Of a DNA stretch of 64,000 bases, positions 10,286 through 48,684 are shown piece after piece. Positions within the stretch are counted from its first letter, which is position 1, and every line of letters starts with the position of its first letter. Below the pieces are notes generated by a model. That model ran no database searches. It was not told the origin of the DNA and saw only the letters and a list, made by a program, of their open reading frames with translations. The stretch is from Squalus acanthias. Its lineage: Eukaryota. The position numbers and the translations under genes are program-made. The DNA lies in NCBI GenBank assembly GCA_030390025.1, contig CM059432.1, positions 92,568,001-92,632,000 of the forward strand. The letters are read 5' to 3'.

Positions 10286-10976
10286 ATTGACGTCTTTCCA
10301 CCCACATCGGGCTCTAAAAATTACACAAGAAAATTCAGCAAGGTGCATTTCTGTAGAATTTAGAAATAATTAAAATACATCTATGTATTATGAAATCAAC
10401 AAAATGGAATGAAAATATTTCTCTGCATTTAGTACAAAGTGACCTTTAATGAATGCAAAGTAATTAAAAAAAAACTTACAATACATTAAGAGGAAGAAAA
10501 AGCAAGTAATACAAAAAAAATAAACAAAATGAATATAATGTTAATGAAAGAGGAGAGAAAAGACCCAGTTGGTTGAGTACAAAAACTCTGAACTAGTCAC
10601 ACAGTCAACTCCCAGGACTCCCTGTCACCACTACATGGGGGGCAGAGGAGCCTCTCACCCTGGCCACATTATGGGATTCTCCATCTCAGGGCGAGGTATT
10701 CCCTATTCTGTTTAGTCACAAAAAAAGAGATTGGTCCTCAAATTGGCAAAATACAATTTCCATTCCGCACTACAAAATCATCCAAATGATTTATTTTGAT
10801 AACATATACAAAATGTAAGTGAAAGAATCCCTCTGTACTGGTTGATGCACTTCTCCCTCCTCCATGTGACCTGTTGCTGCTTCATCACCATTACTACAAA
10901 AAAGTTACAAATATGTTGTGTGTGTGTAGATGTGTTTACAATGTATATACGTAACAAACCCTCATTAAATAAAATA

Positions 10977-15003: not shown

Positions 15004-16952
15004 CCAGTATCTTATTTGCCCTTCTTTACCACAGTTAAGCACTGTGATGACAGATTTATAGATTGCTTAACTCTATAACTCTTGGATCTCTTTTGTGATT
15101 AGCATGCTGTACCATTTTAATACATGTATGGTACATGTACAGGGTGCTTTTATAGAGGTGTTTAAAATAATGAAGAGATGGAACAGAGAAGATAGAAATT
15201 GACAGCTTCCGGTGGTTGAGGGGTCTAGACTAAGGGGAAATGGGCGCAAGATTAAATGCAAGAAATTTAGGGCAGAAAGCAGCAACAACTTGTATTTATA
15301 TAGCGCCTTTAACGTAGAAAAATGCCCCAGGCGTTTCACAGAGGTGTACCAGAATCAAATGGACACCGAACCAAAGGAGAAGACATTACTTGGGGAGGAT
15401 GAAGAACTGTAGATCATTTGCATGATGGCACCTTATGCAAGTGAAGTAATGATGCACTTCAAAGTGATTTACAACAGTTGTCAAATGTTTGCGAACAAAA
15501 AAGGAGTTACCAAACACGTTTTCATGAAACCACTGCCCCTCCACATTACCCCATCTTTTAAAAGACTTGTTCAAAATCCTACTGTATCTGCCTTGTTTCA
15601 AACGGAAAAATGTTTATTGTAGAAGTATTTTATTTATTCTTCTTGCACGGATTCTATCCACAGTGCATTCTGGCCTGTGACTTACAGTTAGTTGGCTTTT
15701 AGTTTCAGAAAACTGCTTAGGTCAACTTGCCTTTAAAATCCACTTCAAGTGGAAAAGGTCTGCTAATATTCTTCTCTAAATCTACGTTATTTTAGAATTG
15801 CACTTGCCCACTCCCCAGAAGAAAATTCTTAAAACAAATGTTTATTTGTGACAGGAATTGAGATTGTTTTCACAAGTGAACGATATGGGCCGAGTTGAAA
15901 GATGGATCTGCGATCTCTGATAGCGATTTATCTAATAGCGATCATAATATGATAAGAGTTCAACATAGTGTTTGAAAGGGAGAAACGCAAAGATTCTAGA
16001 TTTCGGTAAGGCTGACTACAATGCGATGAGACAGAGACTGTCCACAGTAAACTGGGTACATCTGCTAAAGGGTAAAACAACAGAAGATCAGTGGGAGGTG
16101 TTCAAATACAGAAGCAATTTATACCCCTTAGGGGCAAGAGCTCTACTCGCCAAAATAAACAGCCATGGACGACTAAAGAGGTAAGGCGCAACATAATTCT
16201 ACGAGAAAAAGCATACAAAAATGCAAAAAATAGCGCAGATCCTGGTGAAAGATACAAAGAACAGCAAAGGGTGACAAAACAGATAGAGCTACAAAAAGGG
16301 AGTATGAAAAGAAACTTGTAAGGGATATCAAAATCAACACAACATTTTTTTACAATTATATTAGGAAAAAGAGGGCGGTCAGGAGAAAACTGATATCAGT
16401 GATATTGTCAATGAAAATAAGGAAATGGCAGAAATGTTGAATAATTACTTTGCGCCAGTATTTACAGTAGAGGAAGAGGATAGCATGCCGGACATCCCAA
16501 GGAAACTAATATTGAATCAAGGACAGGGACTCACCAAAATTAACATCAGCAAAATAACGGTAATTAAAAAAATAATGGCACTAAGGAATGACAAATCCCC
16601 AGGACCAGATGGTTTCCATCCCAGGGTTTTAATGACAATAGGTGAGAGCATTGCAGGTGCCCTAACTATAATCTTCCAGAGCTCTCTCGATTCGGAAAAC
16701 GTTCCTTTAGATTGGAAAATTGCACGTAATTCCGCTGTTTAAGAAGGGTGGGAGAGGGAAACCAGGGAATTATAGACGAGTTAGCCTAACATCTGTTGTC
16801 GGGAAATTACTCCAGTCTATAATTAAGGATTGAAAGTTTTCAGCTGATCAGAGACAGTCAGCATGGATTTGTAAAGGGTAGGTCATGCCTGACAAACCTG
16901 ATTGAATTTTTTGAAGACGTGACTAAAGTAGTGGACAGGGGAATGTCTATGG

Positions 16953-17052: not shown

Positions 17053-17328
17053 ATGTCCAGGTACATAGATCATTAAAATGTCATGAACAGGTACAGAGAA
17101 TAATAAAAAAAAAGGCTAATGGAATGCTAGCCTTTATATCTGGAGGACTAGAATACAAGGGGGCAGAAGTTATGTTACAGCTGTACAAAGCCCTGGTTAG
17201 ACTACACCTGAGTAATGTGAGCAATTCAGGGCACCACACCTGAGGAAGGATATATTGGTCTTGGAGGGAGTGCAGCGTAGATTTACCAGAATGTTGCCTG
17301 GACTCCAAGGGTTAAATTACGAGGAGAG

Positions 17329-18252
17329 TTTTTTAAAAATCCGTTCATGGGATGTGGGTGTCGCTGGCATTTATTGCCCATCCCTAGTTGCGCCTTCTTG
17401 AATCGCTGCAGTCCGTGTGGTGAAGGTACTCCCACAGTGCTGTTCGGGAGGGAGTTCCAGGATTTTGACCCAGCGACGATGAAGGATCGGCGATATACTT
17501 CCAAGTCAGGATGGTGTGTGACTTGGAGGGGAACTTGGAGGTGGTGGTGTTCCCATGCGCCTGCTGCCCTTGTCCTTCTAGGTGGTAGAGGTTGCGGGTT
17601 TGGGAGGTGCTGCCGAAGGAGCCTTGGCGAGTTGCTGCAGTGCATCTTGTAGATGGTACACACTGCAGCCATGGTACGCCGGTAGTGGAGGGAGTGAATG
17701 TTTAAGGTGGTGGATGGGGTGCCAATCAATCGGGCAGTTTTGTATTGGATGGTGTCGAGCTTCTCGAGTGTTGTTGGAGCTGCACTCATCCAGGCAAGTG
17801 GAGAGTATTCCATCACACTCCTTACTTGTGCCTTGTAGATGGTGGAAAGGCTTTGGGGAGTCAGGAGGTGAGACACTCGCCGCAGAATACCCAGTCTCTG
17901 ACCTGCTCTTGTTGCCACAGTATGTGTGTGGCTGGTCCAGTTAAGTTTCTGGTCAATGGTGACCCCCAGGATATTGTTGGTGGGGGATTCGGCGATGGTA
18001 ATGCCGTTGAATGTCAAGGGACGCTGGTTAGACTCTCGTTTGTTGGAGATAGTCTTGTGTGGCGCGAATGTTACCTGCCACTTATCAGCCCAAGCCTGAA
18101 TGTCGTCCAGGTCTTGCTGCATGCGGGCATGGACTGCTTCATTATCTGAGGAGTTGCGAATGGCACTGAACACTGTGCAGTCATCAGCGAACATCTCCAC
18201 TTCTGACCTTATGATGGAGGGAAGGTCATTGATGAAGCAGCTGAAGATGGTT
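17329..18252 (-). mobile_element. 3' part of a different non-LTR retrotransposon (CR1/L2-group RT C-terminus) nested in the CR1 at 15930-18680
   Basis: ORF 17283-18200: FADDCTV, QQDLDDIQAWADKWQVTF, ILGVTIDQKLNW, IYKAQVRSVMEY, WNSLP. Host sequence GAGGAGAG|ATTACACAAACTAGG is split around it. Confidence 0.88.
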
Positions 18253-30715: not shown

Positions 30716-32297
30716 GGCCCGTAATTTGCGGTCAGTGGCGAAGCAAAGGCACTTGCCGCTGGCCCCGAAGAAAGCTGCCGACAGACATCTCGCGATGTTT
30801 GTGGCAAGAAGTTTGCCTTTCTCGACGTGTAATTCACTGTAGCGCTGTGTAATGGGGATTCCCAGCGAAGAGCTGCAGTGACATCAACAAGCTGTCTCTG
30901 CAGCCAATCACATTGAAGAATTCTCAGACAGCAAACCAGGAAATGAAAAGCTGCTTTTATCCCCACTTTTAAAAAATATTACAGAGAGTGAAATAAAGAT
31001 TGAGAAATTCGATATCGCCCTGTTTGGGGCGCAATTATCGGCCGGGCGCAAAGTTCAGCGTCTGATGCTAATTATCGCCTCCGACTGCAAACTTGGCCTC
31101 TATCGCCCCTGGAGGTGATTGCAGCGCTAAATCAGGCGCTACACACCTCTCTCAAGGCGCTAATGCCGAGGAGCGAGGCGCTATCGCAGAGCGCTGGCGA
31201 AGCTCATGTGATGTCAGTTAGCAATGGAACACAGACACAATGGCACGGGCCAGTTCTTAAAGGGGAGGGTTGATCTTGCTCTCCAGCCACATCCTGCTCA
31301 TTGCAGCCTTGAATCTCGGGCTGGAGAGACCTGTACATCAATTCTACTGGAAGGAACAATGGAGAGGCCCAGGGAAAGAGCTCAGAGTGCAGCCCCAATA
31401 GTCTCTTCTAAATTGATGCAAGGAAGGTCAAATCAAAATGAACCTGCAAAGTGCTGCTCAGTACCCAAAACTCCTTCACACAGCGTTGAATCTCTCTCTC
31501 TCTCTCTCTCTGAATGCGTGGTGCAAAAATGTCGCTGACAAAAAAAGGCAGGAAGCGGCCGCCTTTAAATAGCGCTCCCCCAGTCCCTTCCCGGCTGCAA
31601 AACATTCCCCTCTACCTGTCGTTGCTAGCGGCAGGCAGAAAGGAAGGGGGCGCCACTCAATATCTGGTCCAGGGCGCTACACGCTCGACTGACATCACGA
31701 TCTGCGGGCGCAGGAAATCACGGCGGTAGTGTTTAGCGCTGCCGCAAAATGTCTGGTCATCACCACGTCCGGGTGCTAGTTGCTTTGCGCCCGGGAGGCG
31801 CTAATCAACCGAATTTTTCCCCCTGGGACTTTAACATGGGGATAAGGTAGAAGCTGAAATATCATGAACAAACTTTTACATTTTTTTTAAGTTTAGAAAA
31901 AATTGTAAATATCATAAGAAATTTGACACTCCACAAATATAAAATGTATTTTTCAGGGCCATAACTTTTGTTTAGCCGTCAATATGCTGTTAAAACCCCA
32001 GTTACAGCTATTCTCACAAGGCTTAACATATAATGGGGTATTTAACAGCGATATTACCACGGAAAAGCCCAAGTTTTTGTCAGTTTCACGGATTTCCCTG
32101 ATTACACCGATTGCCAGCTATGAGGGGTGGGTCCACAGCACAGCCTGTGTCGGAGCATTGAATGACTGACCACAACTTCAGGATTTCCGCGTTTAGATGC
32201 ACATGCGCTAAATCCTGAAGTTACGGTCAGTTTCAGAGGGGTAATGATGGCGAACGCTGACAGTTCGCTGTCATTACCCACCGCAAAATTCCAGGCC
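30716..32297. mobile_element. Non-autonomous TIR element (probably Harbinger-like MITE) hosting the 31002-31823 MITE
   Basis: Ends TATTGGCCCGTAATTTGCGGT ... ACCGCAAAATTCCAGGCCAATA are imperfect inverted repeats; no coding capacity. Confidence 0.65.
31002..31823 (+). mobile_element. Non-autonomous internal-deletion derivative (MITE) of the Harbinger family
   Basis: 5' part is collinear with 37664-38045 (TTTGGGGCGCAA, GGAACACAGACACAATGGC, CTCATTGCAGCCTTGAATCTC). 3' part is collinear with 41445-41967 ((TC)n run, TTTAAATAGCGC, GGGGGCGCCACTCAA) and ends GAATTTTTCCCCC. The left terminal G-run is eroded. Confidence 0.85.
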
Positions 32298-33319
32298 AAT
32301 AAAATTAAACTTCTTTTGCAGACTATAAACAGATTTGTCATTACGGTTTTCCATTTACTACTGTTTGAATCTACTCTACACATCTGTAAAAGGGCATAAT
32401 TTGGTAAATTAATTTCCTCTTCACTAAATTTGAAGTTTGCCTCAGCTCTTGAACCCCATCAGTGGCTTTGGATTTCAAGCTCAATGTCTCTTTATTCTAG
32501 AAATATTAAAAATATGTAAAACCTCAACAAAAACTCTTTTTTGAAAAATGTCTCATCTCTAATTAGTTTTTGTTGTGGTGGTTCTATTTCAATTGAAGGC
32601 CACAAAAAGCAGCTGGATTAAAAATAACAAAATTAATTACTCACGATGAAAAAAAAAATCGGGTGACAACCCTGAACACATGGAACACAGCTCAAACTTA
32701 ATTCCATTAGAGACAGACTGCCTCCGCAGTCTTGAGGTTAGTTGCACTAAACAAGACATCATTTCATTTGCTGTGGTCTTCCTGCTAGCCTCGACATTCT
32801 TTCCCAGGCAGAAACAATGCAGCATGGTGCCCTGAACACCATACACCCCCAGTTTCACATTTCTTTCAGGCCTAGAACCTGTTTCTTCTTTTCCTTTCAC
32901 TTAGTTGAATTTTAGCCTGAATCAGTCAGCCACTGCCATCTGGCAGATTCTTATCCCTTTAGCAGCTGATCAGTACCAAGAGACCAGAGTGATGTTCTCA
33001 CAAGAAGGATCTGTGCACATACCATGGACATTAATTGACATCAACAAATGGGGAAAAGAGAGTTAAATTCCTGCAACAGAAACGGTTGCACTGTCATATA
33101 AAGTTAGCTCGGCCCTTAGTCTGAATTACCGTCAGTCTCTGTAATCATAGAATGATACATCACAGAAGGAGGCCATCATGCCTGTGCCGACTCTTTGAAC
33201 GAACTATCCAACTAATCCCACTCCCCTACTCTTTCTGTATAACCCTGCAAATTTTCCCCCACATCCCAATGAGACGTAGGGGAAAAGTGGGAGGGGGGGG
33301 GGGGGGGGGAAGGGCAGAC

Positions 33320-36202
33320 GATCAGGAAGGACAGGCAGGAAGGAAGGGGAGGTGGGGTGGCTATGTTAATAAAGGAAGGAATCACTGTAATACAGAGAAA
33401 TGATATTGGGTCAAAAGATCAGGATAATGAAACAGTTTGGGTGGAGATAAGGAATAATAAGGGGAAAAAAACACTAGTGGGCGTAGTCTATAGGCCTCCG
33501 AATAGTTGTAACTCTGTTGGACGGAGTATCAATCAGGAAATAGTTGAGGCTTGTAATAAGGGAACATCTATAATTATGGGGGATTTTAACTATCATATTA
33601 ATTGGACAAATCAAATTGGGCAGGGCTGCCTTGAGGATGAGTTCATTGAGTGTATTAGGGATGGGTTTCTTGAGCAGTATGTAACTGAACCGACCAGGGG
33701 GCAAGCAACCTTAGATCTGGTCCTGTGCAACGAGACAGGATTAATTAAAAATGTCCTAGTAAAGGATCCCCTTGGAATGAGTGACCATAACATGGTTGAA
33801 TTCCATATTCAATTAGAGGGTGAGAAGGTTGGATCTCAAACAAGCGTGCTAAGCTTGAATAAAGGAGACTATGAAGGTATGCGAGCGGAATTTAGTAGAG
33901 TGGATTGGGAAAATAGATTAAAGGGTAAGACGATACATGATCAGTGGTGTACATTTAAGGAGTTATTTTACAACTTCCAAAACATATATATTCCACTGAG
34001 AAGAAAAGGGTGTAAAAGAAGACAGTCATCCGTGGCTAAGTAAAGAAATTAAGGATAGTATTCGACTAAAAACAAGGGCTTATAAGGTAGCCAAATCTAG
34101 TGGGAGGATAGAGGATTGGGAAAACTTTAAAAGACAGCAAAAAATAACAAAAAGATTGATTAAGAAAGGGAAGATAGATTATGAAAGTAAATTAGCAAAA
34201 AATATAAAAACAGATAGTAAGAGTTTTTATAGTTATATAAAAAGAAAAAGGGTGGCTAAAGTAAATGTTGGTCCCTTAGAGGATGAGACCGGGAAATTAA
34301 TGGTGGGAAATATGGAGATGGCAAATACACTGAATGAATATTTTGTATCAGTCTTTACAGTAGAGGACACTAAGAATATCCCAACACTGGACAAACAGGG
34401 GGCTATGGGGGGGGAGGAGCTAAACACGATCAAAATCACTAAGGAAGTGGTACTCGGTAAAATAATGGGACTCAAGGCGGATAAATCACCTGGACCTGAT
34501 GGCTTACATCCTAGGGTCTTGAGGGAAGTGGCGGTAGGGATTGTGGATGCATTGGTAATAATTTTCCAAAACTCCCTGGACTCAGCAAAGATCCCGGCAG
34601 ACTGGAAAACTGCTAATGTAACACCCTTATTTAAAAAGGGCAGTAGACAGAAGGCTGGAAACTATAGACCGGTTAGCCTAACATCTGTGGTAGGTAAAAT
34701 TTTGGAGTCCATTATTAAGGAGACAGTAACGGGACATTTGGATAATCATAATTTAATAGGACAAAGTCAGCATGGTTTTATGAAGGGGAAGTCATGTTTG
34801 ACAAATTTGCTGGAGTTCTTTGAGGAAGTAACACACAGGGTGGATAAAGGTGAACCAGTGGATGTGGTGTATTTAGACTTCCAAAAGGCATTTGACAAGG
34901 TGCCACACAAAAGATTATTGCTTAAGATAAAAAAATCACAGGATTGGGGGTAATATTCTGGCATGGATAGAGGATTGGCTATCTAACAGAAGGCAGAGAG
35001 TTGGGATAAATGGTTCATTCTCAGACTGGCAATCAGTAACTAGTGGTGTTCCGCAGGGGTCAGTGCTGGGTCCCCAACTCTTTACAATCTATATTAACGA
35101 TTTGGAGGAGGGGACCGAGTGTAACATATCAAAGTTTGCAGATGATACTAAGATGGGAGGGAAAGTAGTGAGTGAGGAGGACATAAAAAATCTGCAAGGG
35201 GACATAGACAGGCTAAGTAAGTGGGCAGAGATTTGGCAGATGGAATACAATACTGGAAAGTGTGAGGTTATGCACTTTGGCAGGAAAAATAGTAGAGCAA
35301 GTTATTATCTAAATGGCAAGAAACTGGAAAGTACTGAAGTACAAAGGGATCTGGGGGTCCTGGTGCACGAAACTCAAAAGGTTAGTATGCAGGTGCAGCA
35401 AGTGATTAAGAAGGCCAATGGAATGTTGGCTTTCGTTGCTAAGGGGATAGAATATAAAAATAGGGAGCTATTGCTTCAGTTGTACAAGGTATTGGTGAGA
35501 CCGCACCTGGAATACTGCATACAGTTTTGGTATCCATACTTAAGAAAAGACATACTTGCTCTCGAGTCAGTACAAAGAAGGTTCACTCGGTTAATTCCGG
35601 GGATGAGGGGATGGACATATGAGGAGAGGTTGGGTAGACTGGGACTCTACTCATTGGAGTTCAGAAGAATGAGAGGCGATCTTATTGAAACATATAAGAT
35701 TGTGAAGGGGTTGGATCGGGTGGATGTGGGGAGGATGTTCCCGATGATGGGTGAAACTAGAACTAGGGGGCATAGTCTTAGAATAAGGGGCTGCTCTTTC
35801 AAAACTGAGATGAGAAGGAACTACTTCACTCAGAGGGTGGTAGGTCCGTGGAATATGCTGCCCCAAAAAGCTGTAGAAGCTACATCATTACATAAATTTA
35901 AAACAGAAATAGACAGTTTCCTAGAAGTAAAGGGAATTAAGAGTTACGGGGAGCGGGCAGGAATTTGGACATGAGTCTAGGTTCGGATCGGTCATGGCCC
36001 TGTGGGTAGCGTAGCGGGCCCAGGGGCCGTGTAGCCTGATCCTGCTCCTATTTCGTGTGTCCAATTCTGTTAGGTTCAGGAGATGGTTCTGTGATAGTAG
36101 ATTGGCGGTTAGGATCAGATCAGCCATGATCTTATTGAATGGCGGAGCAGGCTCGAGGGGCCAATTGGCCTACTCCTGCTCCTATTTCTTATGTTCTTAT
36201 GT
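33320..36202 (+). mobile_element. CR1-clade LINE: near-complete ORF2 (APE endonuclease + reverse transcriptase) and 3' UTR, frameshifted
   Basis: ORFs 33357-34043 (GVVYRPP, MGDFN, LDLVL, SDHN), 34156-34953 (KSPGPDG, NYRPVSLTS, QHGF, YLDFQKAFDKVPH) and 35063-35974 (LGPQLF, FADDTK, RPHLEYC). Ends in the CCTATTTCTTATGTTCTTATGT short-repeat tail. Confidence 0.95.
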
Positions 36203-36959
36203 CTCAGAAGGAAACATGTAGAAATACAACACAGATGACCATTCCATAAAAAAGTTATTCAAATAAAATCTTAGTTTTCTCCCCTTAATCCTTCTCTTCT
36301 GAAGGTTGCAGAAATATAGTTCCACAAATACCAGCAACCCTCAGGTATCTTATCCAAGTTCATGTAATGACACAATCTTCATGTTAGAATCTGGACAGTG
36401 TTGTAAAGCTATGTGACAACGAGAAGGCATCACAGACTTGCTCAATCCCATCCTTGTCCAACATCTGCACATACACACTTCCAGGTAGAATCAAAAGACA
36501 GCAATCAGGAGTGGAAACCCTGGCAGTTCCTCCCACCCCACCGCCCCCTCAAGCTTGAGATGCTGAGGCCAATTGTAGTGCCTTAATCCTGTTCAATCTG
36601 TGGCCAATTAGATCGCGTAGCGCAGCATAAACTTTAGAGCTTCTTGGTCTGTACGGCTATAGCGCTAATAATGCTACCTACATTAGAGAGGTGGTTGAAA
36701 GGAAGGAGATAAAGGGATATGGAAACACAGCAGGCACAGAGGAATAAGACCATTGCTTATGTGGAGGATAAACACCAACATGGACTAATTAAGCTGAATG
36801 GCCTGTTTCCGTGTTTTAACTTCTATGTAATTATTTCTCTACATCCACTAAAGCCAGCTCAATGATACCAGGCAGTTTTCTCTTGCTCTATAGGAGTTAA
36901 TGAATGGACAGAAAATAAGATTTCCAAGCAAAAGGTTCCTAGAGTGACATCTGGGATGT

Positions 36960-37256
36960 ATACACATTGCCGAGCCTACTTTCAGACCCCAAATCTTCGC
37001 CACCTCAAAGACCGCTTACTTTCACCTCTGCAACATTGCCCTAACCATATCATACATGCATTTGTCACCTCCAGATTTGACTATTCCACCACTCTCCTTA
37101 CTGGCCTCACTTCCTCCACCCTCCATCAATTTCAACTTGTGCAAAATTCTGCTGCACTCATCTCTCCTTTTCTAGCTCAGCATCCACTTTTTTTTATACC
37201 TATCTGTGAAGCATCTTGGAATGCTCTTTATAAAGGCACTATATAAAGCGAGTTAC
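36960..37256 (+). mobile_element. Deleted L2 fragment
   Basis: IIHAFVTSRFDYSTTLLTGL..STLHQFQLVQNSAA; tail GGCACTATATAAAGCGAGTT. Confidence 0.75.
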
Positions 37257-38025
37257 TGTCGTAGGTGCTCAACCGATTTAATTCCTTCTACACTACATCC
37301 AGTGGAGAGCTTGGAGGTCAAATAAACCACAAATTAGAGGCCACTTACGATAGAAACCATTTCCATGGTTTCGCCCATGGTTTCTCCCAAATAAGTAGAC
37401 AAAAAAATGGAATGATAAATCTATCCAAATATCTATCTGTAGAATATATTAAAAATGGTACAATAGTATGGTTCCTGTCTGTAAAGCTCTACATGTCACT
37501 TTTTGATTGGTTGCAATAAGAACAAATCACAACTCTACAACTATCCAGAATCACAAAAAGCTTTGCGAATTCAAAATCTTTTCAGCTATGATTTTTCTTA
37601 GTAACTGAAATTTCAAATGTCCAAAATAAAGATTGTGGCATAATAAAGACATTATAAGATTATGGGGTAGAAATTAGGTCGCGCCCCATTTGGGGCGCAA
37701 ATATCGTCCGGACGCAAATATTAGCGCCTGGCGATAATTATCGGCACTGACAGGAAACTTCACTTTTACCGCCCCGGGAGGTGAGTGGAGCGCTAAATTA
37801 GGCGCTGCACACCTCTCTTAAGGCGCAAAGGCCAAGGAGTGAGGCGCTAACTCAGCGCACGAGCGCAGTGCAGCTGCTGCCAGTTAGCGAGGGAACACAG
37901 ACACAATGGCGCCGGACACTTCTTAAAGCGGGGGGGGGGGGGCCACTTGATCCCCAGCCACACCCTACTCATTGCAGCCTTGAATCTCAGCCTGGAGAGA
38001 CCTGTAATCCATTTTGCTGCCAAGC

Positions 38026-40017
38026 ATGGAGAGGGTGAGAGAACGCGCTCATCGCTTCACCGAGCGGGCCTTGGATGCTCTGGTTGGCGCAGTGGAGCGC
38101 AGACGATGCATGCTGTTCCCGGAGAGTGGCAGGAGGCCTTTGCCACGCGAGTTCAGAAGAGTGTGGAGGGAGGTGGCTCAGAGCGTCTCCTCCAGGAGCA
38201 TGGTGCCCAGGACCCATGTTCAATGTCGCAAAAAGTTCAACGACCTCACTCGGGTCGTCAGGGTGAGTGGCTTTTTCTCAATACCTCTCCATCCCTCCAT
38301 CTCAACCTCACTCTATGGCCAGAGGGTCTTAAAACCCCAATGCACAACACTCATCCAACACCAATGGCCCTTTCATCAAACACACACACACATTCCACAC
38401 TTTGCATACAGTAAGGGCTATTCACCTATGGGAGGCACATCAGGCAAGACCATGGCTGTATATTGTAAGGGCTATTCACCTATGGGAGGCACATCAGGCA
38501 AGACCATGGCTGTATATTGTAAGGGCTATTCACCTATGGGAGGCACATCAGGCAAGACCATGGCTGTATATTGTAAGGGCTATTCACCTATGGGAGGCAC
38601 ATCAGGCAAGACCATGGCTGTATATTGTAAGGGCTATTCACCTATGGGAGGCACATCAGGCAAGACCATGGCTGTATATTTACTCAGATGCTGTCCTTTT
38701 TCTTGCAGGCTAAGCTGGCTCATAATCGGAGACAGCAGCAACGGACGGGTGGAGGGCGGCTTCAGCTGCAACCCCTCAGCGATCTGGAGGAGCGCGTCCA
38801 CAGGATTGTGGCAAGCCGGGTGATCGGTCCCGTCGCCACTGGAGACGCCGACCCCGTTGTGGACAGCAATGGTAAGGTCATCACCTTTTTGTCCTCTGTC
38901 CTTCCACTTGTCACTCACAATACCAGCCTTTGACACTTTCAATCCAACTTGCTAACTCGCTGCACTTATTCCTCCCTTACTGCCACCCTGTCCTCACGCT
39001 AAAGCCACTCTTGTACCTCCCTGCTTTCAGATGGTGATTCACCAGCTGAGGAGACGGGCCCTGAAGCTGCCACTGGGAGTGATGCTGCAGCTGAGGAGGA
39101 AGAGGAAGCCGGAGCATCAGTGCCACCCTCTCCCGAGGAAGCCCATGCCCACACTGGGAACACGCCTTCCCCGGAGGGGAGCAGGGGGGAAGGGGCTGAT
39201 GATGGTGAAGCTCCAGGACCCAGCGGGCTGCAGCAACGCCATGGGGGGGGGGGGGGGGAGGGAAGAACGGGGGCCTTCTCCCCAGAGGGAGAGTATGCCA
39301 GACACTCCTACTGCAATGGACGCAGAGGAGGAGCGGCTGATTGCAGAAATGAACAGCCAAGCGGTGGGCATGCACACTGAGCTCATGGGTGCAGTGGGAA
39401 GGGTGCCCGAATGCATTGAGTCACTGGCAAGGAGTGTGGAGCACTTCGCTGTAGCACAGGCGGATGCCACACTAAAGCTTAGTGCTGCAATTCAGTCACT
39501 GGCTGCCAGGAACCCATCTGAGACTGCTCTCATGCAGACTCAGATTGAGGCCACGCGAGCACTGACTGCTGCCATCCTCGATGGTTCGTGCACATGTCCC
39601 CGGGGCTGTCACCGCGCCGCAGCAGGCCAGCAATCTGTTCTCCGGCAAATTGCTCCGGATGCTGAAGTGCTGCCCCGTGGGAGTGCCAGTGTGTCGGGCG
39701 AGCAGGGAGTTGCTGTCCTCTCTCACGATGACAGCATTCCTGCTGCCAACACTGTCACTTCTCCACTGCACTTGCCACCGCCTGTAGGACAGACTGCTGC
39801 CGCCCATGCAGAGTTGTTGCAGTCTGCAGCCGGGCCCTCCAGGCCCAGAAGTGGTCGAGGCCGTCCTTCAGGGGCATCTGCAGTGTCAGGGTCTGACGAG
39901 CAGCAGCCTTTCACCAGCCTTGCTGCAGCCACTGAGGTCCCATTACGGAGGAGCAGTAGGGTTAGAAGGGGGGAAGTGCGCAAGGGAAGGAGATCACCCT
40001 CGAAGGGCAAAAAGTAG
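38026..40017 (+). pseudogene. Harbinger Myb/SANT-like (NAIF1/MSANTD-type trihelix) DNA-binding gene, 3 exons: 38026-38262, 38709-38871, 39031-40017; frameshift at a G16 run
   Basis: Exon 1 MERVRERAHRFTERALDALVGAVERRRCMLF...VWREVAQSVSSRSMVPRTHVQCRKKFNDL is a Myb_DNA-bind_5-type domain. Splice sites AGG|gtgagt, ttgcag|GCT (AKLAHNRRQQQRTGGG), AATG|gtaagg and tttcag|AT have compatible phases (0, 1). The spliced frame stops at 39380, while the helical C-terminal region continues in another frame after the G run at 39243-39258. Confidence 0.85.
38411..38680 (+). repeat. Minisatellite: 5 perfect copies of a 54-bp unit inside Myb intron 1
   Basis: Unit GTAAGGGCTATTCACCTATGGGAGGCACATCAGGCAAGACCATGGCTGTATATT starts at 38411, 38465, 38519, 38573 and 38627, with no spacers. 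Confidence 0.97.
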
Positions 40018-40311
40018 GAGGTGTGCCAAAATGCTGGTCATTTTTTTATTAAAGGCCGAGGTTCATGGTCCAACTTTTGTTTAGTGTTTTGGACATTATC
40101 TCCAGGTTGTGAGAACCAGTTATGTTATTGACTGTTTTTTTGTGTTTATTTCTATGAGTTTGTCATGAGGAATTGACACACACAGAGTTTGTAAAATAAA
40201 TAAGTTTCTGTATTCAAAATATACATGGCTGGTGGTTGGAATTATTGGTGCCTTGGCCGGCTTAGGGGTTGCGTGCTGGGTTGATTAGTGTTTGTAGCAA
40301 TGGCAGGGGCC

Positions 40312-41456
40312 CTAGAAGCGGCTTGCTATTAGTCGTTGACGGACGGCCCTTGCAGTTTGACCATTGTGGGCCGCCCTCCCGCCTTGGTGCTGCTGATGAT
40401 CATCGTCCTCGTCCTCTTCCTCCTCCTCCTCTGGTGGTGCTACAAGGCCTGGTGGCATTGGCTGGGTCCTGAGGATTGCCATGTTGTGCAACATGCAGCA
40501 CACGACTACGAAGTTCGAAACTTGCTCAGGCGAGTACTGCAGGGCTCCTCCGGAATGGTCCAGACAGCGGAACCGTTGTTTCAGCACGCCGATTGTGCGC
40601 TCAATAATGTTCCTGGTTGCTTGATGGCTTTCATTGTACCGCAGCTCAGCAGGGGTGTTTGGCGTACGGAGCGGTGTCATCAGCCAGGTGCTCAATGCGT
40701 ACCCCTTGTCCCCCAGAAGCCAACCAACTGGCTGGCCTCGAAAAGTTCTGCCACAGTAGTCTGGCGCAGGATGAAAGCATCGTGGCAGCTGCCCGGATAG
40801 TGGGCATCGACAGCGAGTATCGCCTGTCTGTGGTCACAGACCAACTGCACATTCAAGGAATGGAACCCCTTTCTGTTCCTGAATTCCTCTGCATTCTCTC
40901 GCGGAGCACGCAAAGCCACATGCGTGCAGTCAATGGCGCCCTGCACCATGGGGAAGCCCGCTACCCTCGCAAAGCCCAGAGCACGGTCACGCTGCTTGTC
41001 TGGGGTCATAGGGAAAGAGATGAAGTCTCGTCTCCTTCTGAAGAGGGCATTGGTGACCTGCCGGATGCAGCGATGCACCGCAAACTGGGAGATATTGGCG
41101 AGGTCCCCAACAGCAGCTTGGAATGAGCCAGTGGCGTAGAAGTTCAAAGCCACTGTGACCTTCACTGCCACCGACAGAGACGTCCTGGACCTCAGCTGAG
41201 GCTGCAGATCTGGCTGCAGCAGGTGGCAGAGCTCAGTGACCACCTCCTTGCTGAATCGCAGCCTTCGCAAACACAGCTCCTCGGACATATGGATCTAGGA
41301 GAGCTGTTCACGATATACCCTGGGAGGGTAAGCTCTCCTGTACATGCGCCTGATGGCCCTCCTCCGTCTGGCCATCATTGCCACTCTCTGTCTGCGTCTC
41401 ACTATCCTCCGATTCAGCTGGAGCAGGACGACGCCCCCAATCATTGCAGCCCCCAT
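40312..41456 (-). pseudogene. Harbinger (HARBI1-like, DDE_Tnp_4) transposase with one nonsense codon and one frameshift
   Basis: Motifs YPPRVYR, RLRFSKE, ALNFYATGSFQ, GAIDCTH (D), [35 protein letters not shown] (D, read in the shifted frame), [26 protein letters not shown] (E), CCMLHN. In-frame TAG at 41297-41295 (EQLS*IHMSEE); frameshift near 40725-40740. Probable ATG at 41456. Confidence 0.93.
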
Positions 41457-42145
41457 ATTCTCTTTGCCAGAAAAGTAATGAGGTACAGCAACTAAAGTAG
41501 CAACAAAGTTAGGATGAATAGGCAAAACTACCTCACAAAGCGTTGAGTCAATGTAGAAGTCTCTCTCTCTCTCTCTCCGAATCTCTCTCTCTCTCTCAGA
41601 ACGAGTGGTGCATAAATGTCGACCACAGAAAAAGACAGGAAGAGGCCCCCTTTAAATAGCGCCCCCCCCAGCCCCACACCGATTGATAACGTTCCAGTCT
41701 TCCGGTCGTTGGAAGCGCCAGGCGGTAAGGCAGGGGGCGCCACTCAATTTCCGCTCCGGGGCGCCCCAAGGGCGTTGCACCATGGAATGACGTCACAATC
41801 TGCGCGCGCAGGTGGTCGCAGTGGTAAGTTTTAGCGCCGCCGCACAATCTCAAGTTAAGTTCTCGAGCGGCGCAAACAGCGCTGCGCCCGGGCGTTAGCG
41901 GCTTAACGCCCCATTAGCGCCCTCTTAAGGCGCTAACGGGAGGCGCAACCAAGTGAATTTTTACCCCTATGTATTTACAATAACATAATTACATTTGTAT
42001 AGGATATAATAATGTCTTTTGTGTCTTTATACATGCCGAACAAGAAAAACAGTAAATGCTGATCAACAGTCTCTAATAAGGTGACAACTTAATAACGACC
42101 TTTATTATAAACATAACATTGTAAACAAAGTAGTTACATGGGCTT

Positions 42146-42248
42146 TGCCAATGACCCACCCCTCCTCACCCACTGACTGCCAATGACCCACCCCTCCTCA
42201 CCCACTGACTGCCAATGACCGACCCCTCCTCACCCACTGACTGCCAAT
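42146..42248 (+). repeat. 32-bp tandem repeat, 3 copies plus a partial
   Basis: TGCCAATGACCCACCCCTCCTCACCCACTGAC at 42146, 42178 and 42210, partial at 42242. Confidence 0.92.
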
Positions 42249-44024
42249 CACCTCCACCCCATCCCCACCAATTGTAGTTAGCCCTCACAAGCTACCTCTA
42301 TCTACCCTGCTTCATTTCCCCTTCCACAGTTACCCCATCCCCTAGACTACATTTTCCATACACAGCAGCTCCATGGGTGTAGCTCCCCTCCTCTCTTAGC
42401 CTGTAGCCAAGGGTGGTTATAAATTCATAAATGTTAGCCTCATTCAAAAAACAGCATCATATTCATAACTGGACTAACCATATAGTCTTTACATATTTGA
42501 AAAGTGTGTAGACTCCATGGCAGGTCTTTTACCAGGGAGGCTAAGAATAAACTTTGCAATATATGCAACAAAATAGGCTGAGGTAGCAGGTAACATTATT
42601 AAAGATCTCATTCCTGATTTAAAAAGACAAGTACCAGACCAAAAATACAGAACTGTTTATTTGTCACATCCAATTTGTGTCATCCAATTCCCTTCTTCAT
42701 TGCTCTCCATTTCCTCCCCCTCGCTCCCCTTCAATGTCATGTTACCCTCTTCACTGCCATCCATTTTTCCCTTCTTTATCCCTTTCATTGCCATCAATTT
42801 TCCCACTCCGACCAGAGTCTTGCTGCTAATAGGTACTACTCTAGGGAGGAACTCATCAGAATTCCTGCCTATAGCACGTGACAGCTAGAGTCACTTCCAT
42901 TAGCAACAGGACACGTATAGGAATGGCAATGAAGAAAGAGAGGCCTGGTGTGCACTGATTCTCGTCAGTAAATGCTAACTATGCATTGGGTACCTAACAC
43001 ATTGACTGTTCACATTTAAGTTCCTTTGACTACCTTAATTCAGGTTTATTATTTGAAGGTCTCAGCTTCTCTCAAAAGCCTGGACTTGAAGTTTATACCC
43101 TTCCCACAGCTATGACTCTGTGCCTGCAAAACCCTGGATGCTGTCATGTGAACTTGTGCATCATTTCCCAGCATGAAATTCTATGTACAAATTGAAGCCT
43201 CTCCTTCCTCACGCCATAATTACAGAATTTTAAAACAACTTAATTTATGTAAAGTTTCACAATCAAACTGTCAAGTTCTTAATAATTTGTTGGTAGAACA
43301 AGTAAATACTACTGAATCATAGGTGTGCTATGTATCTAGGTGTAAGCATATTCTGCTCCCCTTACTCTCCAGTACCCACTGCAAACTTTCCCTACTTTCC
43401 ACTGCCCAGCTCCCAATTATTCACTTCCCAAGCACCAACTGGCCCCCAAGTGCCCGCATTCCATCCTGCTCACTCATCTACCTCAACTACTCGTGACTCT
43501 CATACTCACGACCTAGCCCTGAAAATACTACTGCTTCTTCAATTACTCACAACACCTAAATGTTACTTGCCTTATCTACATACCATAACTCTTATCAACC
43601 CACAACTAGCCCCCAGTACTCACTATGCCAATTCTCCCAATATTCACCGCCCCAAAACTCTCCACACTTCCCTTGACTACTTGCTGCCCCTTCACTACTC
43701 ATTCCTCTACCCTATGGAGCCACTCTCCCACATCCTGACTACTTTCATCCCCAACTATTCACTACTTTCCCCAAAGTACTCACTACCCTCCCACAAGTGC
43801 TCACTTCCCTAGCACCTTTCACAGCTCCCACTCCCCGCATAGAAGCATTAGAAACCCAGTGTTCCTTTCCCAAAGATTGGCTCACATATTATGAGCAACG
43901 TGACTGAACATACACATCCTTACACCACTGAAGATGCACTTGCTTATAAAAAATTGTGTCCTCCAACTTCCTGTCCGCAACTTTACAATGCTAGGTCCGT
44001 CATATTAACAACCTTAAAATACAT

Positions 44025-44626
44025 GGGGTGAAAAATTCTGTTGCTTTGCGCCTCCCGTTGGCGCTAACGGGGCGCAAAGCACCTAGCGCCCGGGTGCCGC
44101 TGACGCCTTCCGCGAAATTCAGCGGTGGCGGTAGCTGGTAGCGCCCTGCGCCTCCGGCGATGATGTAATTGCCGTGCGCAGCACCCCGGCCACAAACTTG
44201 TCTCGCGCCCCCTGACCTACTGCTGGACGCTAAGTCCGACAGGGCCAGGGTGGAGTTTTTGCGGCCAGGGCAGCACAAATTAAAGGGCGGGTGTCGGGCG
44301 GCCATTTTTTTTGGGCCGCCTGCCAGCACGTGCCCCCTCTTGCCTCCCCCTGTGGGGTGCCGGCCGCGATCGGTCAGCCCGGCACTCCTCCTGAGTGCCG
44401 GGCTCTTTTGCCGGCATCCCGCTCCCCGCTGGTCCAGCAGGGCCCCGGTGCACCCCTCCCCTTTAATCAGGGGAGCTGCACGTAGCGCCGCGATATTCAA
44501 TGGGAGCGCCCCAAGAGGGAGGGGGAGCGCTTCCAGTAGCACCCCGCCTCCTGCTTGGGGCGCTACCATTCAATTTCGGGTGTGGGGGTGCTAATTTTTT
44601 TGGGGTGCGACCCAATTTTCCCCCCC
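44025..44626 (-). mobile_element. Harbinger-family MITE (~600 bp), inverted relative to the 37664-41967 element
   Basis: Starts GGGGTGAAAAATTC...TTGCGCCTCCCGTTGGCGCT (matches the reverse complement of the right end near 41967) and ends GGGGTGCGACCCAATTTTCCCCC (matches the reverse complement of the left end GGGGTAGAAATTAGGTCGCGCCCC). Interior is GC-rich with no recognisable coding sequence. Confidence 0.8.
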
Positions 44627-46724
44627 GAGGTCCTTTTGAGCTGTGAGCTAGAACTAACAAGCACGTTACTAAGCAGGTTCAAATCTCAAAGTTCCCTGGC
44701 AAACAATTGAACTAATAACTTTTGAGACAATCTTTACCGAACAACAACTGAACTTTGTGACATAGCTATACCCTAGCAGAATAACAAATTCTAAAATATA
44801 TGATACAGCATTCACGTCCTTATTAACTGGATATCATCTAACTTATCGCGATCAATACCACACGAGATGTTAGCTTAGACATTAAATTTACTCTGCAACT
44901 ACATAGCAAAACTCTTCTGAACAACAAATAAGGCCATCTTTGTCTGTGTGGAGAAAATTCACAGCAAGTGTTCTGAAGTGTCCCTCCAGTTGAACTTGCA
45001 CTTCTAGGTACGTATAAAAGAACCTAAAAATTCCCACAAGAGAATAGTAAACCTAGGGTAGAACCTCTCCAACCTATATTGATGCAGATTGGGAGAGCTC
45101 CCTCCTCCCAAATATAAACAATGTAGCAATGTATCAGACTTAGTTGAAACAATTGGTGGATTGATTACTTCCCCATGCATGGGACAATAAACCAGAGCTT
45201 TGGCAGATTTAAAATGATTTGGGCATTAATTGAATGTTACTTCAACTTTCAACAAAACTGGAACCTTGAGAACATCATACTTCAAGCAGTCAATAAAACT
45301 AATGTTGTATTCGGGAGGGGGAATTATGAGTGTATGAAGGACAAAGCTGCTCTCCTCCTGAACACATGGGTGTGGCACTTAAAGAAACCACACTATTTGG
45401 GAAGACCATAAAGCGAGAAAGTTCAAAAACATCAAACTTTTAGTCTATTAAAGCTTTGCACCAAGAGAATAAATGTACCACTTTTACATATTTAAAGGAT
45501 ATGTATAGCAACGCCTGTTTTTCATTATATACAGTTACAACTAACAATAGACAATTCAAAGTCTGCTCATGATCCTTTTAGAAAGGGGGATGATTGGAGT
45601 ACATGTTTCATAACTAAAGGCCACAGTTTATTAAAAAAACAAAATTGTTTTCCCGGTTATGGGGTGTGCAGAATATTAATTGGGTTGCCCCTGGAAGTAG
45701 AAATACATTCAACTAAAGTCCCTGGTAGTAGCATGTCACGATACATCTTGTTCAAAATTAAATCTTCAATTGTTTGTGCATGAGTCCCAAAAAATTGAAG
45801 AGTAGGTTAGTCACAGTAACTGATTTAAATGCTAGCCCAAGAAAAGCACATTGCTGCACCTGTTGGAATGCAATAATAACAAAAGTGAGTGATAGATTTC
45901 CAGACCAGACATCTGGATGTACATGTTTTTCAATTAGAAATGTTCTAAAATATCCAGTTCTGGTTTGTGGCCACAACCACAAAACTAGAAGAGTTTCCTG
46001 GGTTTGCTAGTGGCTAAGAAGTCTGGCTTACGATCCTTAAACCTACATTGTTTACCAGCTAGCGGTATAGATTTCAAATTTTGCAGATTTCAACTTTAAA
46101 GGGAATGGGAGCGAGGACATAAAACTAGGCATTAGAGAGAAACTTCTCAAAGTAAGTGCTTGTCCCTTCACTTGGGAAAAACAGCAGCCCTCAAGCTCCA
46201 TCAGTATAAAAATGAGGAGTCAGAATGTCTTGTTGGGTTGAGTTTATTCCACTGGAGACTTGCAAGACTCATACTGTGAATTTCCTGCCAAATTCATGGA
46301 GACTGAGGCTATTTTTTGTACCTACAGTGTGCTACTTAAACTTTGCAATGACACCTAAAGAAGCATCCCAGAATAAGGCACTGGGTTGGCTTTATCCTGC
46401 AGTATTTGCAGGAAAATGTTCTCCACATCAAGTTAAAAGTTACTTCATTTTTTGCAGCTCTCAGATATCTTTCTTTCCTCCACAACAAAGTAAACAAGTA
46501 AAACGGTTGCTGCGAGCCATGAATAAATGAAGTGTCATGCTTCCCCATCCCAAAAATCAGTAAAGTTTCTTCACCCCAATCACAGAAACAGAGTTAGTAA
46601 CATCACTAATCAGAATCACAGCCATCTTACTCCAGCAACTTCAAAAAAAATACATTCAAATTATGTTTGCTAAATTAGATACGGATATTTTCTCCATGAA
46701 GATCTGAGAATAAGGCCATTGTAA

Positions 46725-47275
46725 GGAACATAAGAAATAGGAGCAGGCCATTCAGCCCCTCGAACCTACTCCACCATTTAATGAGATCATGGCTGATCCG
46801 ATTTTGGCCTCAGCTCCACCTTCCTGCCCGCTCCCCATAACCCTTGACTCCCCTGTTGCTCAAAAATCTGTCTATCTCAGCCTTGAATATATTCAATGAC
46901 TCAGCTTCCACAGCTCTCTGGGGTAAAGAATTCCAAAGATTCACGACCCTCTGAGAGAAGAAATTCCTCCTCATCTCCGTCTTAAATGGGCGACCCCTTA
47001 TTCTGAGACTATGCCCCCTCGTTCTAGATTCCCTGATGAGGGGAAACATCCTCTCAGCATCTACCCTGTCTAACCCCCTCAGAATCTTGTATGTTTCAAT
47101 AAGATCACCTCTCATTCTTCTAAACTCCAATGAGTATAGACCCAACCTGCTCAACCTTTCCTCATAAGACAACCCTTCCATTCTAGAAATCAACCCAGTG
47201 AACCTTCTCTGAACTGCCTCCAATGCAAGTATATCCCTCCTTAAATAAGGGGACCAAAACAGTACACAGTACTCT
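46725..47275 (-). mobile_element. CR1 LINE 3' fragment
   Basis: ORF 46810-47223 closely resembles the C-terminus of 35063-35974; GAACATAAGAAATAGGAGCAGG tail. Confidence 0.92.
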
Positions 47276-47399
47276 AGTTAGCTGAAACTTCCCTTTGATG
47301 CTCCAAAAGGATTTATTATAGCTCATAGCAGTCTAACCTCAGTTATAAGGTAAGTTACCAACTAATAACCACTTTTAGGATGACGTGATATAGGAGAGT

Positions 47400-48680
47400 G
47401 ATGTACTATTGCTCAAATTTGGGAATGGTTTAAAAGAGCGTCAAACAACCAGTGAAAGTGACAGAAAGAAACAGAAAAAGAGAAAAGATGTGAGCTACCG
47501 TAACAATATTGGAAAGGTCAGTGCTGAAACTATAATCTAGCTCAGATGTTCTTGACTGTGTGAAGATGTCCACCTGAAAACACTTCAACTTCTATATTAC
47601 CATGGGGGAGACTTCTATGTAAGGACTACTTCTAAAGTAGGATCATATTCTGTGCTCAACATGTAATGGGCTATCACAGGTATTTTGTATGCACTTCATC
47701 AATCTTACAATCTCTACAAACATGGAATGAATAATTTTTTTTGCACCGTAGAAAATCTACATCAGTCCATAATAGGACTGACTTGCAATGAAAGATCCTG
47801 TACATCTATCAGCGTGGCACGCAGTTTCAAAATTACTATTGCTTACCCGAAGAGAGGTTACCGGTGACAAGTGTCTTAAGTGAGGGAATTGTTTGAGCCA
47901 GGTCGCTCCCTTAACTATCCACCACAGATAGGGTTGATGGATTTTGTTTCTGCATAAGTCTAAGAGGGCAACCACTGTACCAGTAGATTGAATAGCTGAA
48001 ATAAACAGCCTGGTATTGGAGGGTATAAATATGGTTGCTATCAGGCTCGGGTTCCCTGAGGTATGGTTTTGCCATGCATATGTTTCTGAACATCTAGCAA
48101 TGCAACCCCCGACAAGACGACATGACCCAGCACCACCTTGAACCTGGCTATGTACATGGTGTTATGAGGTGTTTTCAACTGGAACTTTACTAGAAGACCC
48201 AGATAGACAACATCTTGCATTGCCTGAAGGATCACTGGAAGTGAGTGTACCTACACAAGGCAAGAGTTAAGGTGTGGTAAACATGGTGCAGGTGAGCATC
48301 ACTTGTGGTCTAAAATGCATTTGATTTTTTTTCTTGAAGAACTGGCAAAATCCATGGTCCACTGGAAAGTGAAAAGGTCTTCATGTAATTGATATAAAGT
48401 TTGAAGTGTAAATCAAAAGTCAATAGCAAATGTCGAGTAATAACTTGTCTATAATATATTACACTTATTCCATGCATCACACACTCCTTACTTGGGTGTC
48501 ATCATTCATCTCCTGCATCTCGGTGGCACATCAATAGAATTTCCCATTATTAAGCTCCTAGTTGTCACAGGCGCCCAGACACGCCAGCAGCTCTAGCTCT
48601 AACACTAGATGGAACTTCAAAGCCTGCAGATCTGCAGACCACAACCAACATTGCAGCCTCTCTCCCTGGATACAGGCACA
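47400..48680 (+). mobile_element. Very old, fragmented non-LTR retrotransposon RT relic
   Basis: Faint ordered remnants resembling GVPQGxVL (GGTTCCCTGAGGTATGGTTTTG, ~48050) and PYLGVII (CCTTACTTGGGTGTCATCATT, ~48486). Confidence 0.35.
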
Positions 48681-48684
48681 TTGA

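What the first reader, a model, noticed from the sequence alone, without database searches (positions are those of the whole stretch)
37664..41967. Nearly intact two-gene Harbinger transposon, three lesions from coding-complete, inside the MRPS28 intron
Seen: both TIRs, a TAT duplication, a 3-exon Myb/SANT gene with canonical in-phase splice sites, and a convergent transposase with a full D-D-E triad. Only three defects are visible: a TAG at 41295-41297 (one base from TAC/TAT), a frameshift near 40730, and a G16 length change at 39243-39258. Established: Harbingers need both transposase and Myb-like protein and gave rise to HARBI1/NAIF1; intact vertebrate copies are uncommon. Inference: this is a young, possibly still active family whose consensus could be reconstructed. 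The TAT duplication departs from the TWA usually quoted for PIF elements.
Basis: partly seen in the sequence, partly recalled or inferred. Interest (0 to 1): 0.75.

Follow-up and report, generated by a model that had tools for sequence, protein, structure and literature searches.

The report
Broken copy of shark Harbinger transposon
This is a full-length but broken copy of an abundant two-gene "cut-and-paste" transposon in a shark-type genome; most of its family lacks the three breaks, but nothing here shows that the family still jumps, so it is a new member of a known kind.

Summary
The anatomy is confirmed. The element is 4,304 bp, with 12-bp inverted ends, TAT on both sides, a three-exon Myb/SANT gene and a convergent DDE transposase.

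In public runs the three breaks look specific to this copy. No laid contig carries the stop; the frameshift is a 7-base loss; the G16 run is 10 G longer than in two runs' long contigs. The family is abundant (24,032 and 35,914 contigs in two runs; hundreds of copies at least by a crude floor), and coding parts are well represented. The copy differs from prevailing letters by about 0.2-1.2%.

Activity is not shown: no splice joint was listed and no empty site found. At a published shark mutation rate that distance means millions of generations. TAT is not a family anomaly: the flanks match 9 of 12 bases of zebrafish Harbinger3_DR's target.

The host gene is plausibly MRPS28, but only one exon lies in the window. 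Harbingers are already reported in sharks, and the scan noted a similar copy elsewhere in this genome (e1-7789957). Verdict: new member of a known kind.

The parts
37655..37663 (+). Left target flank (6 bp) plus TAT target-site duplication (37661-37663)
37664..37675 (+). Left terminal inverted repeat, 12 bp, starts GGGG
   Evidence: 11 of 12 bases complementary to the right end
37676..38025 (+). Left subterminal region rich in GGCGC/AGCGC motifs (likely Myb-protein binding sites, inferred), with a TATA-like motif at 37921 and a G13 run at 37930-37942
   Evidence: GGCGC 8 in the first 300 bp vs 6 in 3.4 kb of interior and 0 in 5 kb of left flank
38026..38262 (+). Myb/SANT gene exon 1 (DNA-binding domain)
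   Evidence: PF13873 E 4.7e-9
38263..38708 (+). Myb intron 1 (GT-AG, 446 bp), holding five exact 54-bp tandem copies at 38411-38680
38709..38871 (+). Myb gene exon 2
38872..39030 (+). Myb intron 2 (GT-AG, 159 bp)
39031..40017 (+). Myb gene exon 3 (acidic part, helical middle, basic tail), frameshifted at the G run
39243..39258 (+). Lesion: G16 run, 10 G longer than in long contigs of two runs; shifts the Myb frame
   Evidence: table 4 (X13, X17; no row for X1, X2)
40018..40311 (.). Shared 3' region of the convergent genes, with AATAAA on both strands (+40195; -40150, -40050)
   Evidence: function inferred
40312..41456 (-). DDE transposase gene (383 aa when read through with X at the breaks; D176, D252, E288)
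40734..40735 (-). Lesion: 7 bases missing relative to family contigs; frameshift between the first and second catalytic D
   Evidence: table 4 (X13, X17) and table 7 loose ends (X1, X2, X17)
41295..41297 (-). Lesion: premature TAG at codon 54, not carried by any laid contig
   Evidence: table 3: other letter at full depth in 4 of 4 runs
41457..41955 (-). Transposase 5' region: possible short 5'UTR intron (41531-41462), TATA-like motif at 41658, CpG-rich subterminal GGCGC motifs
   Evidence: function inferred
41956..41967 (-). Right terminal inverted repeat, 12 bp
41968..41976 (+). TAT target-site duplication (41968-41970) plus right target flank (6 bp)
59715..59897 (-). MRPS28 internal coding exon (probable host gene; the element lies about 17.7 kb downstream of it)

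Best explanation
A full-length, non-autonomous (broken) copy of an abundant chondrichthyan Harbinger family of the Harbinger3_DR/NuwaI type. How it works, from known Harbingers and not tested here: the Myb/SANT protein binds the ends, recruits and imports the DDE transposase, which cuts the element out and pastes it into a roughly 15-bp site, duplicating the central 3 bp. Shown here: both ends, the duplication, both genes, an intact triad, a target whose flanks fit the zebrafish consensus, and three frame breaks absent from prevailing family letters. Inferred: the copy was inserted from an intact source element during a burst that left hundreds or more gene-bearing copies, and then picked up a stop, a 7-base loss and a G-run expansion. 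It cannot make a working transposase but keeps its ends and could be moved in trans. Whether any source element is still active is unknown; I think the burst is more likely past than ongoing.
For: Anatomy. Lineage: 109 of 120 listed transposase homologs carry shark or ray names, best 69% identity; in a quick tree of 47 rows the window lies in a 38-row all-chondrichthyan clade, SH-aLRT 99. Abundance: 24,032 (X1) and 35,914 (X2) contigs laid; summed depth 1e5-2e6 on the element against 13.7 and 0 on the flank; the subterminal bins are only about 3 times the transposase bins; crude floor 350-560 copies. Lesions private: tables 3, 4, 7. Target: 9 of 12 flank bases match AAACAC-CWG-GTCTTT, a level reached by 57 of about 59,700 window sites. 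Three further relatives of different ages lie in the same 64 kb.
Against: No genome was held, so copy number, TSD spectrum and intact copies could not be counted. The depth is 'no copy number' by the tool's own warning, and my range runs from about 350 to about 50,000. The window's private letters at 40808 and 41295 and the right flank have no depth in X2 (95% read), so organism A may not be the window's species, and part of the distance may be between species. The G-run difference rests on one contig each in X13 and X17. TAT fits neither TWA nor CWG. Placement in the Nuwa clade was not tested with reference transposases.
Confidence: 0.85

Rival explanations
1. The family is currently active: intact source copies are expressed and make polymorphic insertions, and this is a recent, since-damaged daughter copy.
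For: The prevailing letters keep both frames open at the three breaks; D-D-E and 94 of 94 conserved columns are intact; long low-difference contigs are within about 1%; CpG is retained at the right end (o/e 0.99 vs 0.38 for the window); gene-bearing copies are abundant.
Against: This copy has at least 7 private substitutions among 40 listed places plus two length changes, i.e. millions of generations at the published shark rate. Most laid contigs are under 99% alike (7,797 of 35,914 at 99%+ in X2, though short variant contigs inflate this). No splice joint was listed in the possibly-RNA run, and no empty site was seen.
Confidence: 0.2
2. The breaks are assembly or sequencing errors and this copy is really intact.
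For: One break is a homopolymer, a second long G run sits at 37930-37942, and the window's stop letter has no depth in any of 4 runs.
Against: A clean 7-base loss, a C/G substitution and a 10-base run extension are three different error types, and other private substitutions accompany them. The right flank is also missing from X2, so the absence of the window's letters more likely means this locus is not in those runs.
Confidence: 0.05
3. A domesticated HARBI1/NAIF1-like host gene pair in the making.
For: Databases name the relatives 'putative nuclease HARBI1', and apparently single-copy HARBI1-type proteins of this lineage are conserved across shark and ray genera.
Against: TIRs, a TSD, very high copy depth and three frame breaks; the window protein is not in those conserved sets and joins long-branched sawshark copies.
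Confidence: 0.01
4. The family has moved horizontally into several unrelated organisms.
For: Seven further organism labels (B-H) hold 0.46-0.67 of the sampled words; organism H has long contigs within about 1% of the window copy.
Against: Only H was laid (1 of 7). It shows flat depth of about 10, prevailing family letters, two overlapping subfamily forms and no contig reaching the terminus or a flank, which is what trace DNA of a high-copy repeat gives. The other labels may be related sharks or host-associated samples; names are coded.
Confidence: 0.08

Closest known systems
Harbinger3_DR / Harbinger3N_DR of zebrafish (Sinzelle et al. 2008, not read; seen as cited in passages of PMC3016246 and PMC2836001)
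   Same: Two required proteins (Myb-like plus DDE transposase), 3-bp duplication, and an extended 15-bp target whose flanks match this site at 9 of 12 bases.
NuwaI group of the PHIS superfamily (PMC4482050, Results section read)
   Same: TIR of 12 bp (range 12-61) starting GGG, length 4.3 kb (mean about 4.46 kb), DDE gene plus Myb/SANT gene, animal host.
   Different: The defining CWG duplication is not met by this copy; no chondrichthyan host is named among the 16 genomes; clade membership was not tested.
PIF/Harbinger group in the strict sense (PMC4482050)
   Same: Two genes, short TIR starting with G, about 4.1 kb mean length, 3-bp TSD.
   Different: The TWA duplication is not met.
Harbinger-Snek of sea kraits (PMC8437027, parts 1-2 of 4 read)
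   Same: High-copy, gene-bearing vertebrate Harbinger with intronic insertions.
   Different: Snek has counted intact copies (269 in L. colubrina, 1 in L. laticaudata), RNA support and a horizontal-transfer case; none of these is shown here. Here the relatives are spread across sharks and rays.
Shark and ray proteins annotated 'putative nuclease HARBI1' and 'uncharacterized' Myb-like proteins (e.g. UniRef100_UPI00398EE6FF, UPI00398E995F of Pristiophorus japonicus)
   Same: Closest sequences: transposase up to 69% over 306 aa; Myb 38% over nearly the full length.
   Different: Different families; annotated as genes, not as transposons; of 103 that cover the triad only 42 keep D-D-E.

Membership tests
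Harbinger / PHIS superfamily (two-gene type) | DDE transposase of the DDE_Tnp_4/HARBI1 type with the catalytic triad | tested here: met
Harbinger / PHIS superfamily (two-gene type) | Second gene with a Myb/SANT domain | tested here: met
Harbinger / PHIS superfamily (two-gene type) | Short terminal inverted repeats and a 3-bp target-site duplication | tested here: met
   the 3-bp length rests on one site, no empty site seen
Harbinger / PHIS superfamily (two-gene type) | Dispersed, multi-copy | tested here: met
   (tens of thousands of contigs; other flanks as loose ends at 41967 in X13); relatives in the window
PIF/Harbinger group, strict sense (Han et al. 2015) | TWA duplication | tested here: not met
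   TAT at this site vs definition; family spectrum not available
NuwaI / Harbinger3_DR type | CWG duplication | tested here: not met
   TAT at this site; one site only
NuwaI / Harbinger3_DR type | TIR 12-61 bp starting GGG, about 4.5 kb | tested here: met
NuwaI / Harbinger3_DR type | Extended 15-bp target preference | tested here: inconclusive
NuwaI / Harbinger3_DR type | Transposase falls in the Nuwa clade | not tested
   no reference Nuwa or Harbinger3_DR transposase among the fetched proteins
Autonomous (potentially active) element | Both reading frames intact in this copy | tested here: not met
Active family | Intact expressed copies, identical copies or polymorphic insertions | tested here: inconclusive
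   no genome held
Already catalogued Repbase/Dfam family | 80% or more identity to a curated consensus | not testable with these tools
   no repeat library is offered
Domesticated HARBI1/NAIF1-type gene | Single copy, no TIR/TSD, open frame | tested here: not met

The most novel reading that the evidence does not exclude
Some sharks carry a high-copy Harbinger family, dominated by gene-bearing rather than miniature copies, that still has intact expressed source elements and makes new insertions. It would be a naturally active vertebrate Harbinger in a slowly mutating lineage, reading a 15-bp target mainly through its flanks with a relaxed central triplet.
Probability: 0.2. Interest if true: 0.62.

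Novelty: new member of a known kind. Interest (0 to 1): 0.33.

Why it matters
A 2022 survey found no Harbingers in the elephant shark and asked for other cartilaginous fishes to be examined (PMC9179366). Two shark genome papers mention Harbingers in one sentence each. This copy gives a concrete two-gene model for an abundant shark family, and shows that many shark 'HARBI1' annotations belong to a transposon lineage. If intact source copies proved active, they would be a natural vertebrate Harbinger with an extended target preference, useful for studying target choice and as a DNA-transposon source of variation in slowly mutating genomes. As it stands, the locus is one broken copy among many.

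Tried and rejected
Own genome: none held, so no copy census.

Metagenome scans for element ends: the exact right-end pattern gave 0 matches. A looser pattern gave 4 loci, and 0 of 4 showed similarity to the element by blastn or tblastn, so they are chance.

Expression: no RNA holder listed on record. The guessed-RNA run X13 covers intron 2 and the terminus, has other flanks as loose ends, and shows no splice joint among the 15 listed of 41 joints. This is no evidence for or against expression.

Empty site or polymorphism: the stretch laid (38685-42140) did not include the left junction, and the flank had depth 13.7 in X1 and 0 in the other three runs; undecided.

A search with Myb exon 1 for longer proteins found only 1 of 171 candidates, a weak search.

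The careful tree did not finish; the quick tree is used, with 46 rows chosen by me (mostly longer proteins) from the 146 homologs fetched by then.

The bacterial promoter/terminator scan is not applicable.

Earlier-finding look-ups by sequence and by relatives returned nothing.

Six literature searches listed no paper devoted to shark Harbinger families. Most subscription papers, Repbase and Dfam are outside the library. I did not open supplements (the repeat tables of PMC12498223 and PMC8455134 may bear on abundance and age).

No structure or complex prediction was run.
Full report
Observation. The sequence at 37664-41967 is as described. The ends form a 12-bp inverted repeat (11 of 12 bases) and TAT stands on both sides; chance identity of two 3-mers in this window is 0.019. 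The element is GC- and CpG-rich against its surroundings (GC 0.556 vs 0.42, CpG o/e 0.56 vs 0.38). GGCGC motifs cluster at both ends: 8 in 300 bp and 12 in about 330 bp, against 6 in 3.4 kb of interior and 0 in 5 kb of left flank.

The two genes. The Myb/SANT gene runs on the + strand in three exons (38026-38262, 38709-38871, 39031-40017) with GT-AG introns. Exon 1 hits Pfam Myb_DNA-bind_5 (E 4.7e-9). With the G run masked, the frame is open to a stop at 40017 whenever the run is shortened by 1, 4, 7, 10 or 13. The model aligns over residues 5-455 with a Pristiophorus japonicus protein (38% identity, E 4e-90), across both introns and the break. The transposase runs on the - strand (41456-40312). 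Read through with X at the two breaks it is 383 aa, has D176, D252 and E288, and matches all 94 columns that are at least 75% conserved among 120 homologs. As written, the transposase ends after 53 residues and the Myb protein after 249.

Host. 109 of 120 listed transposase homologs carry shark or ray names (204 hits among 652 candidates). In a quick tree of 47 rows the window lies in a 38-row chondrichthyan clade with SH-aLRT 99 (rows chosen by me, careful search unfinished). One MRPS28 exon lies at 59897-59715 on the - strand (97% identity to a Heterodontus protein). Neither the first nor the last coding exon is in the window, so the intronic position is inferred.

The family. No genome was held. 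Of 24 public runs listed, 20 hold the stretch or part of it; organism A holds 0.78-0.87 of the sampled words in DNA runs. I laid four runs on 38685-42140. X1 and X2 (organism A) gave 24,032 and 35,914 contigs, with summed depth of 1e5-2e6 over the element against 13.7 and 0 on the flank. The tool warns that this is no copy number; my crude bounds are about 350-560 at the floor and 35,000-52,000 at the ceiling. The subterminal bins are only about 3 times deeper than the transposase bins, so gene-bearing copies form a large part of the family.

The three breaks look private to this copy. At 41295 another letter holds the whole depth in 4 of 4 runs. Seven bases are missing behind 40734 (gap rows in X13 and X17; loose ends in X1, X2, X17). 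The G run is 10 longer than in one contig each of X13 and X17, with no row for X1 or X2. Of 135 variant places 40 were shown. Seven of these 40 are private (95% or more other letter in both X1 and X2), including amino-acid changes at 40808, 40822 and 39817. Against my reading: the window's private letters at 40808 and 41295 and the flank have no depth in X2 although 95% of it was read. Organism A may therefore be a relative, or the locus may be filtered or absent; this is undecided.

Age and activity. Seven of eight listed X17 contigs differ from the window at 27 of 2,355 letters (1.15%; 41 of 2,592 with the eighth, a different subfamily). The private substitutions give a floor of about 0.2%. 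With 7e-10 per base per generation, measured in the epaulette shark (PMC10587355, passages), this is about 3-16 million generations (1.4-82 million over the confidence range). The estimate is rough: the rate comes from another species, repeats may mutate faster, and subfamily or species differences add to the distance. It does show that a small sequence distance does not mean recent insertion in a shark. The run guessed to be RNA shows no listed splice joint and behaves like DNA, so expression is untested. Organism H (X17) shows flat depth of about 10, prevailing letters and no contig reaching the terminus; I read this as trace DNA, not as horizontal transfer.

Target site. Han et al. define PIF/Harbinger by TWA, and NuwaI by CWG with TIRs of 12-61 bp starting GGG and about 4.46 kb (PMC4482050, Results section). 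This copy meets neither triplet but fits NuwaI in ends and size. The zebrafish Harbinger3_DR target is AAACACCWGGTCTTT (PMC3016246, passage), and an extended 15-bp preference in vertebrates is stated in PMC2836001 (passages). The six bases on each side of the TAT match that consensus at 9 of 12 positions in the better orientation; 57 of about 59,700 window positions do as well. An earlier scan note (e1-7807215) pointed me to this comparison, and it rests on one site. The likely reading is that the flanks carry the preference and the central triplet is tolerant.

Mechanism. Established for Harbingers (PMC2836001, PMC9179366 and PMC9392472, passages; Sinzelle 2008 not read): both proteins are required; the Myb-like protein binds the ends and brings the transposase into the nucleus. 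Shown here: all cis parts and both genes, broken at three places. Inferred: insertion from an intact source element during a burst, later decay, and possible mobilisation in trans.

Comparison and novelty. Harbingers were not detected in the elephant shark (PMC9179366, passages) but are mentioned in the whale shark and grey reef shark genomes (one passage each). High-copy vertebrate Harbingers with intact copies are known: 269 in Laticauda colubrina (PMC8437027, parts 1-2 of 4). Six searches listed no paper devoted to shark Harbinger families, but Repbase, Dfam, subscription journals and supplements were not seen. The scan had already noted a near-intact two-gene Harbinger on another piece of this genome (e1-7789957; unchecked AI note).

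Verdict. Observation confirmed, interpretation partly supported. This is a broken full-length copy of an abundant chondrichthyan Harbinger family of the Harbinger3_DR/NuwaI type (confidence 0.85): a new member of a known kind, interest 0.33. The chance that the family is still active is about 0.2.

Noticed in passing
proteins P0010, P0016, P0122-P0127 and P0005, P0007, P0129, P0130: Two sets of HARBI1-type proteins are conserved across genera with short branches: one in galeomorph sharks (Carcharodon, Scyliorhinus, Chiloscyllium, Hemiscyllium, Rhincodon, Stegostoma) and one in rays (Mobula, Hypanus, Narcine). The four checked lack the catalytic E (K, R, K, Q). They are candidate chondrichthyan-specific domesticated, catalytically dead transposases; the ray set nests in the same clade as the window element. 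Synteny and copy number were not checked.
   Followed up: partly
window 31003-31823: Internal-deletion derivative related to the element (77% to the left end, 67-75% to the right end); left TIR degenerate, no matching duplication seen.
   Followed up: partly
window 44025-44625: CpG-rich miniature element with similar GGGG...AAAATT ends; its left end resembles the element's right end (71% over 89 bp).
   Followed up: partly
window 13736-15004 (-): Decayed Harbinger remnant with a TIR-like end near 15002, Myb exon-1 remnants, a 68-bp x3 repeat and a C-terminal motif shared with the element's Myb protein. Loose ends at 39901 match this other family.
   Followed up: partly
window 38411-38680: Five exact copies of a 54-bp unit inside Myb intron 1; 100% identity suggests a recent expansion or an assembly effect. 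Not covered by the read-laying run.
   Followed up: no
window 37930-37942 and 39243-39258: Two long G runs (13 and 16) in one element; the relative at 31.2 kb has an interrupted run at the first place, and family contigs have a short run at the second. Possible G-tract instability or homopolymer error.
   Followed up: partly
   Followed up: no
window 40050 and 40150 (-): The transposase gene has the same orientation as MRPS28 and brings two AATAAA motifs on that strand; an effect on the host transcript is possible but untested.
   Followed up: no
proteins P0271 and P0277: Database proteins join parts of this Myb-like protein to other domains (a RING/B-box/PML coiled-coil protein of Pristiophorus; an immunoglobulin-domain protein): exonisation or annotation artefacts.
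   Followed up: no
window 33273-35974, 56071-59116, 17283-18251, 10803-11530: Long frames resembling LINE reverse transcriptase/endonuclease fragments (CR1/L2-like, by eye) and a Penelope-like GIY-YIG fragment; labels recalled, not searched.
   Followed up: no
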